From: Mustelus asterias
Taxonomy: Eukaryota
NCBI RefSeq assembly: GCF_964213995.1
Contig: NC_135801.1
Span: 111,848,001-111,912,000, forward strand
Reading direction: 5' to 3'
DNA length: 64,000 nucleotides
Part shown: in pieces, positions 15,001 through 18,000 of the stretch
Layout: every line of letters starts with the position of its first letter
Position numbering within the stretch: position 1 is the stretch's first letter
Made by a program: the position numbers

Positions 15001-18000
15001 CCAAGTTAGAGGTAGCAAAGATTCCTCTTCACAGACTGTCTGATCTTACTTCCCAGAAGAATTTAATCAGGTCTTACAGTGCGTAGAGCTTTGGAATGGA
15101 TACACTGCAACTCTCACGTGGGAGCACAATTGACTGGTGTATTACATAATGGGATAAATATTTTGTTAAAGATCAATGAACTCCATTATTCTAAGAGTCA
15201 TGATTCCCATAATAACCCAGGTATCAGAGACACCATCACCTTGAAAGCAGTTTGGTGTCGTTATTCTTTATGAATTGCATTATTAGAGACTTTGGTGAAT
15301 GGGGAGAGGGCTGTGATGCAAGGGAAGAGGAATGATCATGTAGATGGTTTTGCAGTCCGTGCCAGCTGCCACATTTCTGCTTCTTGCTATTTAAGGTTTC
15401 ATATCGGATGCTGTTGTGTTGGTCTTTGACTTATTTATTTATAAAAAAGTGTGGATGTAGATCTGCCTCTCAATCCACTCAACAAAATGAGTTACATTGC
15501 TGTAAACACCAGGTCCAAGGAGTTTTGTAAAGCATACCGATCCCCAAGATGTTAGACCAAATAATGTCCATCTCTTGCCAGGCTGTTCACAAACCAGAGG
15601 TCCTCCACTGTCACCCTGACCAACAGAAAGACAATGATGTTCAGGCAATTGAAATAGATACTATTAGCACACCTACAAAAACACTTCCACTTTACCTAGT
15701 TTAAAACTCATTTGGTCTAACCAGTTCCTTAATGAATGGTCACATGTCCTGATCCTGCTGCTATTTGAGATTGTAACAGCTAAAAGGTACTGCTGGTATG
15801 TGGGTGCAAGATATTCTACTTATTTTATATGTTGTGTATAATTGGATTTGTTTTATTATTGTCACATGTATTAGCATACAGTGAAAAGTATTGTTTCTTG
15901 CACACTATACAGACAAAGCATACCGTTCATAGAGAAGGAAATGAGAGAGTGCGGAATGTAGTGTTACAGTCATAGCTAGGATGTAGAGAAAGATCAACTT
16001 AATGCAAGGTAGGTCCATTCAAAAGTCTGATGGCAGCAGGGAAGAAGCTGTTCTTGAATCGGTTGGTACATGATCTCAGACTTTTGTATCTTTTTCCCGA
16101 CGGAAGAAGGTGGAAGAGAGAATGTCTGGGGTGCATGGGATCCTTAATTATGCTGGCTGCTTTGCCGAGGCAGCAGGAAGTGTAGACAGAGACAATAGAT
16201 GGGAGGCTGGTTTGCATGATGGATTGGGCTACATTCACGACCTTTTGTAGTTCCTTGCGGTCTTGGGTAGAGCAGGAGCCATACCAAGCTGCGATACAAC
16301 CAGAAAGAATGCTTCCTTTACATTGCTGTAAACACCAGTTCCAAGGAGTTTTGTAAAGCATACCGATCCCCAAGATGTTAAACCAAATAATGTCCATCTC
16401 TTGCCAGGCTGTTCACAAACCAGAGGTCCTCCACTGTCACTTGGTAAAGAATCGTAGCTGACATGCCAAATTTCCTTAGTCTTCTGAGAAGGTAGAGGCG
16501 TTAGTGGGCTTTCGTGACTATAGTATCATCAACATAGGGGACCAGGACAGGTTGTCGGTGATCTGGACATCTAAAAACTTGAATCTCTCAACCCTTTCTA
16601 CTTCGTCCCCGTTGATGCACTCACCTGATGAGGGAGCGGTGCTCCGAAAGCTCGGGCTACCAAATAAACCTGTTGGACTTTAACCTGGTGTTGTGAGACT
16701 TCTTACTGTGCCCATCCTAGTCCAACACTGGCAACTCCACATCATGATGTAGATAAGGGCATGTTCTCCTCTAAGCTACCTGAAGTCGATGACAATCTCC
16801 TTCATTTTGTTGACATTGAGGGAGAGATTATTGTCGCTGCACCAGTTCACCAGATTCTCTCATTCCTGTACTCTGTCTCATCATTGTTTGAGATCTGTCC
16901 CACTACAGTGGTGTCGTCAGCAAACGTGAAAATCGAATTGGAGGGGAATTTGGCCACACAGTCATAGGTGTATAAGGAGTATAGTAGGGGGTTGAGAACA
17001 CAGCCTTGTGGGGCACCGGTGTTAAGGATGATCGTGGAGGAGGTGTTGTTGCCTATCCTTCCTGATTGTGGTCTGTGAGTTAGGAAGTTCAGGATCCAGT
17101 CGCAGAGGGAGGAGCCGAGGCCCAGGCCACGGAGTTTGGAGATGCGTTTCTTGGGAATAATGGTGTTGAAGGTTGAGCTGTAGTCAATAAATAGGATTCT
17201 GACATAGGTGTCTTTGTTATCTAGGTATTCCAGGATTGCGTGCAGGGCCAGGGAGACGGCATCTGCTGCAGACCTGTTGCGACGATAGGCAAACTGTAGT
17301 CCAGGTAGTCCGGAGGCTGGAATTGATTGGTGCCATGACTAGCCTTTCAAAGAACTTCATAATGATGGATGCCAGAGCCATCGGATGATAGTCATTGAGG
17401 CACGCTGCTTGTTTTTTCTTTTAGGTACCAGGATGATGGTCACCAATTTGTCGTTGTACAAGATGCTGCATGTGAGTATTCTCTATGCAACGATTATGGT
17501 ACAACCATAACATATGTTGAAACACCTGCACCCTAGAGAAAACATTATTTCATTGACAGCTTAGATTTTGATCTCTGCTGTCAATTTCACAATGTTTGCT
17601 TGCTATGTGGTTTCAAGGGTTTGTGGGTTTTGTTATTGACAGTCTAAAGGGTCGGGATGATTGTGACCCAACAAAGGAACTAGACGTGTCAATGACCTGA
17701 AAAGAAATCCAACACTATGTGAAGGCGTTAAAATCATTCAATGCAGTAGCTTTCCCCTGTGAATTGAGTACAGCACAGTCCCTGGGAAGCTGCTGTGAAG
17801 ATGTTTCAGTACATTTCGCACACTTGCAGATGGGCAGCACAAACAAGCTGACCAAGGAACGGCAGGTGAGAAATCTGATAACCACAAGTGGATTTCTGAA
17901 TGGTGCAACCATGCAGGCACACCTAGTTAGCAATGAATTGTTATAATTAAACAAGCATATAGAGGCTATAACTAGTTAACTACATTCACCTGATGTAAAT

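What the first reader, a model, noticed from the sequence alone, without database searches (positions are those of the whole stretch)
16318..16440. Copy of the CORIN catalytic-Ser exon segment pasted into a LINE in the preceding intron
Seen: 123 bp duplicating 15492-15614 ([10 protein letters not shown]...GVYSNV) in the same orientation, with 2 substitutions (silent Leu, Pro to Thr). Comparison with the second Rex1 copy (about 59060-59105) shows the insert replaces roughly 18 nt of LINE sequence and has no TSD. One end falls 1 nt inside the exon's 5' boundary. Inference: a templated insertion from double-strand-break repair, using either local DNA 826 bp away or spliced CORIN RNA/cDNA, given that the breakpoint nearly coincides with the splice junction.
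Basis: partly seen in the sequence, partly recalled or inferred. Interest (0 to 1): 0.7.

Follow-up and report, generated by a model that had tools for sequence, protein, structure and literature searches.

The report
Exon fragment patched into intronic LINE
A 123-base copy of part of the last coding exon of a shark's CORIN gene sits inside an old, dead LINE retrotransposon 826 bases upstream in the same intron, most likely as a scar of DNA-break repair, which is a known and probably harmless kind of mutation.

Summary
Window 16318-16440 is a same-orientation copy of 15492-15614, 121 of 123 bases identical. The source is the last coding exon of CORIN on the minus strand. The copy starts 1 nt inside the exon's 5' edge.

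The copy lies in a 5'-truncated, decayed, Rex1-like LINE (15841-17442, minus strand) in the preceding intron. A second LINE copy (58221-59523) and 119 related LINE proteins lack the insert. They have 17-24 nt (codons FYRCTI) where it sits.

There is no target-site duplication, no poly(A), and 0-1 nt of junction microhomology. The sequence past the exon edge is LINE. It matches neither the upstream exon (7 of 19) nor the intron (4 of 19).

The LINE shows about 6% decay and the insert 1.6%. P(2 or fewer changes if equally old) is about 0.03-0.06.

Best reading: a later germline break in the LINE, repaired by end joining with a patch copied from nearby sequence in cis. Whether the template was DNA or RNA is unresolved, and the spliced-mRNA idea gains no support. 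This is a new member of a known kind, of modest interest. The window is shark, not human.

The parts
16318..16440 (-). The insert: a 123-nt copy of exon sequence (codons [10 protein letters not shown]...GVYSNV, lacking exon nt 1), with 2 substitutions
   Evidence: 98.4%, E 6e-57; codon changes Leu silent, Pro to Thr; the chimeric ORF 16235-16525 matches Pfam Trypsin, E 6e-6
15492..15614 (-). The source segment inside the last coding exon of CORIN
15439..15615 (-). Coding part of the last CORIN exon (58 codons plus stop TAA). The acceptor AG lies just upstream at 15617-15616. The 3' UTR continues to lower coordinates and its end was not determined.
   Evidence: translation, pyrimidine tract, AG; Trypsin; 100% to Scyliorhinus canicula CORIN, 97-98% to three other sharks
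21636..21770 (-). The preceding CORIN exon (ends ...TVDSCM, donor GTAAGC). It defines the roughly 6-kb intron that holds the LINE and the insert.
15841..17442 (-). LINE A: a 5'-truncated, decayed Rex1-like non-LTR retrotransposon in the same orientation as CORIN. It is host to the insert.
   Evidence: 78-82% to LINE B over 477+162+699 nt; RVT_1; relatives carry PF00078, PF09004, PF03372; 3 in-frame stops and at least 3 frameshifts in A
16441..16447 (-). Seven nt next to the insert that blastn does not align to LINE B. They are either diverged LINE sequence or filler added at the junction.
   Evidence: alignment resumes at 16448 = 59067; alternative alignments
16620..16747 (+). SINE- or MITE-like repeat inserted into LINE A after its arrival. 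It is absent from LINE B and differs from the majority of the other window copies at 9 of 110 positions. It is used only as a second clock.
58221..59523 (+). LINE B: the second copy of the family, used as the empty-site comparator. Window 59068-59091 is the stretch that the insert replaces in A.

Best explanation
Long after a Rex1-like LINE had landed in the last intron of CORIN and decayed, a germline double-strand break occurred inside it. The break was at the codons for ...FYRCTIE... near the 3' end of its ORF.

The ends lost 17-24 nt. They were rejoined by an end-joining type of repair that filled the gap with a 123-nt patch. The patch was copied from sequence 826 bp away on the same chromosome, in the same orientation.

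I take the template to have been the nearby DNA, through synthesis-dependent end joining or a short replicative template switch and return. I take the end 1 nt from the splice acceptor to be chance.

The patch has since evolved neutrally, picking up 1-2 substitutions. It has no shown function.

Shown: the copy, its direction (exon to LINE), the loss of LINE bases, the lack of retrotransposition marks, and the lack of upstream-exon or intron sequence at the junction. Inferred: the break, the repair pathway, DNA as the template, and that the event is later than the LINE.
For: (1) Copy and donor are both present, 121 of 123 identical and ungapped.

(2) Direction: the exon is conserved from sharks to mammals, with the 120 listed hits 83-100% identical. 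LINE B and the consensus of 119 related LINE proteins read FYRCTIES where A has the insert.

(3) Recipient microdeletion: 24 nt of LINE B have no counterpart except 7 unaligned nt in A.

(4) There is no abutting direct repeat and no A-run at the 3' end of the insert.

(5) Junction homology is 0-1 nt by reading. The replaced LINE stretch resembles the source no more than random window segments do: 85% of 3903 random segments score at least as high.

(6) Age: LINE A departs from residues conserved in at least 90% of relatives, and kept by LINE B, at 13 of 113 positions. That gives about 6% per-nt decay (95% range 3-10%). A also carries 3 stops and at least 3 frameshifts. The insert differs at 2 of 123 positions. 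The chance of 2 or fewer changes if it were as old as the LINE is 0.03-0.06. The repeat nested in LINE A differs from its family majority at 9 of 110 positions.

(7) A source 826 bp away in cis is what a local DNA template predicts.

(8) The features match class 2 templated sequence insertions: 73-414 bp, no TSD, no poly(A), microdeletion (PMC5110952, text parts 1-2 read).
Against: - Microhomology of 2 nt or more, usual for polymerase-theta or MMBIR-type template switches, was not found. The ancestral LINE A sequence at the junction is unknown, because only one 80%-identical comparator exists in the window (one search found no third close copy).
- 123 nt is long for typical polymerase-theta templated insertions (recalled, not from a call).
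- The patch is wholly exonic and one end is 1 nt from the acceptor. A DNA template explains neither, except as chance of a few percent.
- The age argument is only moderately strong (P 0.03-0.06). It assumes no gene conversion between exon and copy.
- No reads or second assembly were available, so the sequence itself is unconfirmed.
Confidence: 0.5

Rival explanations
1. This is the same break-repair event, but the patch was reverse-transcribed from CORIN RNA made at the locus (nascent or chromatin-bound transcript, or a cDNA fragment of it) and captured by end joining. It would be a class 2 templated sequence insertion with an RNA intermediate.
For: - The patch is wholly exonic, in a transcribed gene, and in sense orientation to gene and LINE.
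- Its size and junction features (no TSD, no poly(A), microdeletion, little microhomology) are those of class 2 TSIs. Those insertions are reported to be enriched for transcribed sequence and reduced about three-fold by reverse-transcriptase inhibitors (PMC5110952).
- RNA-templated break repair in human cells is reported (PMC12065846, abstract only).
- One end lies 1 nt from the acceptor.
Against: - A spliced mRNA has no end at the junction. The flank matches the upstream exon at 7 of 19 positions, and exon nt 1 is absent or changed.
- A free cDNA from mature mRNA would have no reason to land 826 bp from its own gene.
- A nascent pre-mRNA would carry intron as well, so 'wholly exonic' is not predicted either.
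- Nothing in one locus can show an RNA intermediate.
Confidence: 0.22
2. The exon piece entered during the original retrotransposition of LINE A. While copying LINE RNA at this intronic target, the reverse transcriptase jumped to nearby CORIN RNA, copied 123 nt, and jumped back to the LINE RNA 17-24 nt further on.
For: - The exon piece, LINE and gene all share one orientation.
- Single and double template switches by LINE reverse transcriptases are described (PMC2104539, abstract only).
- LINE-1 chimeras whose exon parts end at splice sites are described (bioRxiv 10.1101/2025.02.02.635956, abstract and sections 24 and 32 read).
- Such jumps need little or no homology.
Against: - The insert is less diverged (2 of 123) than expected for something as old as LINE A: about 7 changes expected, P(2 or fewer) 0.03-0.06.
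- Known chimeras place the foreign RNA at the 5' end of the LINE part. Here LINE lies on both sides, which needs a return to almost the same spot on the first template.
- Gene conversion could hide the age difference, so the idea is weakened rather than excluded.
Confidence: 0.1
3. Assembly or sequencing artefact: the insert does not exist in the animal.
For: No reads were available. The chimeric 96-aa ORF across the insert has no counterpart in the protein collection: 29 hits among 31 candidates, none covering both flanks at high identity. That collection evidently lacks this species: four shark CORINs are only about 90% identical to the window's exons and a skate's 79%.
Against: - The copy differs from its source at 2 positions.
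- It has clean, unique junctions inside otherwise colinear LINE sequence, together with a matching loss of LINE bases.
- A mis-join would more likely give an identical copy or a larger rearrangement.
Confidence: 0.05

Closest known systems
Class 2 templated sequence insertions / polymorphisms (TSI, TSIP; Onozawa and Aplan)
   Same: A copied patch, with the donor left intact, fills a break. The size lies within the reported 73-414 bp. There is no target-site duplication and no poly(A), and the recipient has a microdeletion with end-joining type junctions (PMC5110952, compared).
   Different: Those insertions are defined by templates from distant regions, often other chromosomes, and were described in human cells and genomes. 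Here the template is 826 bp away in cis, in a shark, and an RNA intermediate cannot be shown.
Local templated insertions of synthesis-dependent or polymerase-theta end joining, and MMBIR/FoSTeS template switches
   Same: The template is nearby on the same molecule. The insertion is combined with a small deletion. The copy is in direct orientation.
   Different: The microhomology of 2 nt or more that usually marks these junctions was not found. 123 nt is longer than typical polymerase-theta insertions (recalled). The relevant papers were seen only as search listings (PMC8421209, PMC4490562, PMC4032859).
LINE reverse-transcriptase template-switch chimeras (U6/L1, mRNA/L1, tripartite chimeras)
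   Same: Gene-derived and LINE-derived pieces are fused in one orientation. In some human cases the exon piece ends exactly at a splice site.
   Different: Those chimeras carry the foreign piece at the LINE's 5' end, arrive in one event, and are flanked by one TSD. Here the piece is internal, replaces LINE bases, and appears younger than the LINE.
Processed (retro)copies of mRNA
   Same: The copy holds exon-only sequence.
   Different: There is no continuity into the upstream exon (7 of 19), no poly(A), no TSD, and only 123 nt of one exon.

Membership tests
Class 2 templated sequence insertion | Inserted sequence is a copy; the donor site stays intact | tested here: met
   Both copies are present, 121 of 123 identical.
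Class 2 templated sequence insertion | No target-site duplication of 5 bp or more, no poly(A) tract or signal at the insert | tested here: met
   No repeat abuts the insert. The only shared 7-mer (AAAGAAT) lies 11 nt and 5 nt away from the junctions. The 3' end of the insert reads ...AATGTAA then LINE sequence.
Class 2 templated sequence insertion | End-joining marks at the recipient: microdeletion, microhomology or untemplated bases | tested here: met
   24 nt of LINE B are unmatched against 7 unaligned nt in A. Microhomology is 0-1 nt by reading.
Class 2 templated sequence insertion | [quoted passage not shown] | tested here: not met
   The template is 826 bp away on the same strand.
Class 2 templated sequence insertion | RNA intermediate | not testable with these tools
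   One locus cannot show it. The flank is neither upstream exon (7 of 19) nor intron (4 of 19).
LINE template-switch chimera | All parts arrive in one retrotransposition event (same age, one TSD around the whole) | tested here: inconclusive
   Insert 2 of 123 against about 6% decay of LINE A; P(2 or fewer) 0.03-0.06. The TSD of LINE A itself was not examined.
LINE template-switch chimera | Foreign RNA copy joined to the 5' end of the LINE part | tested here: not met
   LINE sequence lies on both sides of the insert.
Polymerase-theta / MMBIR templated insertion | Microhomology (2 nt or more) at the template-switch junctions | tested here: inconclusive
   None was seen against LINE B. The ancestral LINE A sequence is unknown and there is no third close copy in the window.
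Processed retrocopy of spliced mRNA | Continuity across an exon-exon junction | tested here: not met
   The 19 nt beyond the exon edge match the upstream exon's end at 7 of 19 positions, and the position of exon nt 1 is A, not G.
Rex1 superfamily LINE (host element) | Reverse transcriptase of the non-LTR type | tested here: met
   RVT_1, E 4e-17. 1392 relatives at E 1e-10 or better among 1772 candidates; the 120 listed are 49-74% identical.
Rex1 superfamily LINE (host element) | Apurinic-type endonuclease upstream of the RT | not testable with these tools
   LINE A and LINE B are 5'-truncated. Some longer relatives carry PF03372.
Rex1 superfamily LINE (host element) | Groups with named Rex1 references in a tree | not tested
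   No named Rex1 reference is held by the tools. The relatives are mostly teleost and ray proteins. That fits the reported spread of Rex1 (passages of PMC13343379) but is not a test.

The most novel reading that the evidence does not exclude
The LINE/exon junction at 16441/16440 could be a splice junction written back into DNA. The sense-oriented LINE is transcribed as part of the CORIN pre-mRNA. A cryptic donor inside it would be spliced to the acceptor of the last exon. This chimeric transcript would then have served as the template when a break in the same LINE was repaired.

That would explain three things at once: why the copy starts at the exon edge, why LINE sequence follows directly, and why everything is in one orientation. 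It would be a germline footprint of transcript-templated break repair in a vertebrate.

Against it:
- LINE B has no GT at the matching place.
- The junction is 1 nt off.
- The other junction shows no homology that could have primed synthesis.
Probability: 0.07. Interest if true: 0.7.

Novelty: new member of a known kind. Interest (0 to 1): 0.3.

Why it matters
As it stands, this is one more example of a patch insertion at a repaired break, here fixed in a shark genome.

It has three small uses:
- It shows how exon fragments get scattered into neighbouring introns. There they can mislead annotation: tblastn with a CORIN protein reports the copy as an 87%-identical 'exon'.
- The insertion creates an AG just before, and a GTAAAG just after, the copied piece. 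It is therefore a candidate pseudo-exon that would open with a stop codon. This is untested.
- With a whole genome, a census of such local patches would let one ask whether their ends favour exon edges. That is a direct way to weigh RNA against DNA templates in germline break repair. One locus cannot answer it.

Tried and rejected
- Upstream-exon or intron sequence past the exon edge: rejected (7 of 19 and 4 of 19; an earlier 20-nt version gave 7 and 4 of 20).
- Homeology between the replaced LINE stretch and the source, prompted by a shared CTGTAAA: no better than chance, since 85% of 3903 random segments score at least as high.
- Target-site duplication: none. A 7-mer, AAAGAAT, occurs in both 30-nt flanks but does not abut the insert. 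It may be chance or a short second templated piece. A 16441-16452 against LINE B gives 7 of 12 matches by my count, which is not clearly below the 80% background.
- A third LINE copy to reconstruct the pre-insertion sequence: none close enough in the window.
- Semi-global alignment of the flanks: my gap settings did not behave as intended and the output was not used. Limits come from blastn and MAFFT.
- Independent trace of the chimeric ORF in the protein collection: none.
- Hammerhead-like look of the repeat nested in LINE A: no Rfam family at gathering score in the whole window. One chance-level hit (E 0.97) in 16560-16800.
- Literature: searches gave the comparison classes. One search (Rex1 + Scyliorhinus + LINE) found nothing. 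None of the listed papers, as far as I read them, describes an exon fragment patched into a LINE next to its own exon. The searches were not exhaustive and supplements were closed.
- Structure and complex prediction and the prokaryote genome collection were not used, because they do not bear on the question.

Full report
**What is there.** Window 16318-16440 duplicates 15492-15614 in direct orientation. It is 123 nt long with 2 mismatches, no gap, and spacing 826 (blastn 98.4%, E 6e-57). The window has no N. In a self-comparison of the whole window (124 pairs of matches), only one other pair is above 98% identical: a 615-nt inverted repeat at 18517-19131 / 19667-20281. The duplication is therefore real and far beyond chance.

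**The source.** The gene runs on the minus strand. Window 15615-15442 reads [58 protein letters not shown] and then a stop. It is preceded by a pyrimidine tract and AG at 15617-15616.
- The peptide matches Pfam Trypsin (E 8e-10).
- In the protein collection (500 hits at E 1e-5 or better among 534 candidates, 120 listed), the best hits are proteins named atrial natriuretic peptide-converting enzyme, i.e. CORIN. They are Scyliorhinus canicula 100%, Chiloscyllium and Rhincodon 98%, and Hemiscyllium 97%.
- tblastn of the S. canicula protein against the window gives 12 matches. They lay out exons on the minus strand from 60084 down to 15442, with the preceding exon at 21770-21636. One further match is an LDL-receptor repeat cross-hit. 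The only match outside an exon is the copy itself, 16459-16319 at 87%.
- Over the exon matches, the window is 90-91% identical to four shark CORINs and 79% identical to a skate's. The window therefore comes from a shark whose own proteins are apparently not in the collection. It is not human.

Only the last-exon peptide was searched.

**The edges.** The exon starts at 15615 and the copy at 15614, so one end is 1 nt inside the exon's 5' boundary. The other end is mid-exon, 51 nt before the stop. The two substitutions are CTA to TTA (Leu, silent) and CCT to ACT (Pro to Thr). The Pro is the state in the S. canicula protein, so that change happened in the copy.

**The host.** Window 15841-17442 on the minus strand is a 5'-truncated LINE.
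- A 163-aa ORF matches RVT_1 (E 4e-17).
- Relatives number 1392 at E 1e-10 or better among 1772 candidates. The 120 listed are 49-74% identical. They are mostly teleost proteins plus a stingray protein. They carry PF00078, often PF09004, and in some long ones PF03372.
Rex1 is reported across most vertebrate species sampled, with its highest genome share in rays and salmon (passages of PMC13343379). I could not test the label against a named reference.
- A second copy, LINE B (58221-59523, plus strand), is 78-82% identical.
- LINE A also carries a later nested repeat at 16620-16747 that LINE B lacks.

**The junctions.** LINE A aligns to LINE B up to 16317 = 59092 and again from 16448 = 59067 (MAFFT).
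- LINE B has 24 nt where A has the 123-nt insert plus 7 unaligned nt, a net loss of 17-24 nt.
- At the protein level, LINE B and the relatives read ...FG(M/I/L)S..(S/T)L(T/N)NFYRCT(I/V)ES..., with LINE B and P0133 continuing ILSGCI. LINE A reads ...FGMSATILYQ, then the insert, then GSILSGCI. The insert is therefore foreign to the family and replaces about six codons.
- No duplicated word abuts the insert. There is no A-run at its 3' end.
- By reading, microhomology at either junction is 0-1 nt.
- A shared CTGTAAA between the replaced LINE stretch and the source is no better than chance: 85% of 3903 random segments score at least as high.

**Test of the spliced-RNA idea.** If a spliced transcript had been copied through the junction, the 19 nt beyond should match the end of the upstream exon. 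They match at 7 of 19, and the position of exon nt 1 is A, not G. If genomic DNA had been copied past the edge, they should match the intron. They match at 4 of 19. They are LINE sequence.
- The copy thus stops at the edge, whatever the template was.
- In a spliced mRNA the junction is not an end, so the near-coincidence does not in itself favour spliced RNA.
- By my arithmetic, about 3 of roughly 100-180 possible start points for a recognisable copy lie within 1 nt of the edge. That is a 2-5% coincidence, noticed after the fact.

**Age.** I took positions where at least 90% of 119 related LINE proteins, the reference P0133 and the other window copy all agree.
- LINE A departs at 13 of 113 such positions and LINE B at 27 of 127.
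- Converted with about 72% of changes being non-synonymous (my assumption), this is about 6% per-nt decay for A, with a 95% range of 3-10%.
- A also has 3 in-frame stops and at least 3 frameshifts outside the insert.
- The nested repeat differs from the majority of the other eight window copies at 9 of 110 positions.
- The insert differs from the exon at 2 of 123 positions (95% range 0.2-5.8%).
- If it were as old as LINE A, about 7 changes would be expected. The chance of 2 or fewer is 0.03-0.06, depending on the threshold.

This favours a later event. The support is moderate only, and gene conversion from the exon could mask age.

**Interpretation.** The anatomy is that of a break repaired by end joining with a copied patch: the donor is intact, the recipient has a microdeletion, there is no TSD and no poly(A), and homology is minimal.
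- The closest described class is the class 2 templated sequence insertion: 73-414 bp, the same junction features, thought to be largely RNA-derived (PMC5110952, parts 1-2 of 4 read). It differs in that those templates are distant.
- The 826-bp distance in cis points to a local template. I judge nearby DNA the more likely (0.5) and locus-bound RNA less so (0.22).
- A double template jump by the LINE's own reverse transcriptase at integration has precedents for jumps (PMC2104539, abstract). It also has precedents for exon pieces ending at splice sites (bioRxiv 10.1101/2025.02.02.635956, abstract and sections 24 and 32). It fits the age and the internal position poorly (0.1).
- An artefact cannot be excluded without reads (0.05). 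The two substitutions and the matching loss of LINE bases argue against it.

**The boldest reading still open.** The LINE/exon junction could be a splice junction, from a cryptic donor in the sense-oriented LINE to the last-exon acceptor, fixed in DNA by transcript-templated repair. LINE B shows no GT at the spot and the junction is 1 nt off. I give it 0.07.

**What stayed unchecked.**
- No shark genome, reads or RNA data are held by the tools.
- The orthologous locus, other copies of the LINE family and expression therefore remain open.
- Supplementary tables of the LINE-1 chimera preprint, which might list internal chimeras, could not be seen.

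Noticed in passing
window 18517-19131 and 19667-20281: A 615-nt inverted repeat, 99.2% identical, with a 535-nt spacer, in the same CORIN intron about 2 kb upstream of the LINE. The outer flanks read ...ACAAGTG and AGAAGTG..., a TSD-like 7-mer with one mismatch. This suggests a recently inserted long-TIR or foldback DNA element. Its arm divergence (0.8%) is of the same order as that of the exon copy. One copy of the short repeat (19129-19253) sits at the inner end of the left arm.
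   Followed up: partly
window 16620-16747; also 12581-12735, 19129-19253, 38010-38202, 55834-56057, 41174-41213: A short (about 90-130 nt) SINE- or MITE-like repeat with a very conserved core. It occurs once as a solo copy nested in LINE A. It occurs three times as head-to-head inverted pairs, at least one (around 38097) with a palindromic centre. It contains a CTGATGAG...GAAA motif that looks hammerhead-like to the eye. No Rfam family matches.
   Followed up: partly
window 16441-16440 and 16321-16316 (minus strand): The insertion creates an AG directly before TGACAG..., after a pyrimidine-rich LINE stretch. It also creates GTAAAG right after ...AAT at its 3' end. The 118 nt between them (16439-16322) could be spliced in as a pseudo-exon. 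It would open with TGA in the frame left by the preceding exon. No RNA data were available, and splice strength was not scored.
   Followed up: no
window 16300-16306 and 16446-16452: The 7-mer AAAGAAT occurs in both 30-nt flanks of the insert, 11 nt before and 5 nt after it. It is either chance or a second, very short templated piece of the kind seen in error-prone end joining.
   Followed up: partly
window 16319-16459 (minus strand): tblastn with a CORIN protein reports the copy plus LINE flank as an 87%-identical 47-residue match. Homology-based gene prediction could wrongly call this an alternative exon.
   Followed up: yes
window 22497-23924 and 34771-36221: A pair of more distant LINE-like copies in opposite orientation, 67% identical over about 1.45 kb. 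They give weak RT-protein matches to the Rex1-like reference (23-32% identity), so they belong to a different LINE family in the same gene.
   Followed up: no
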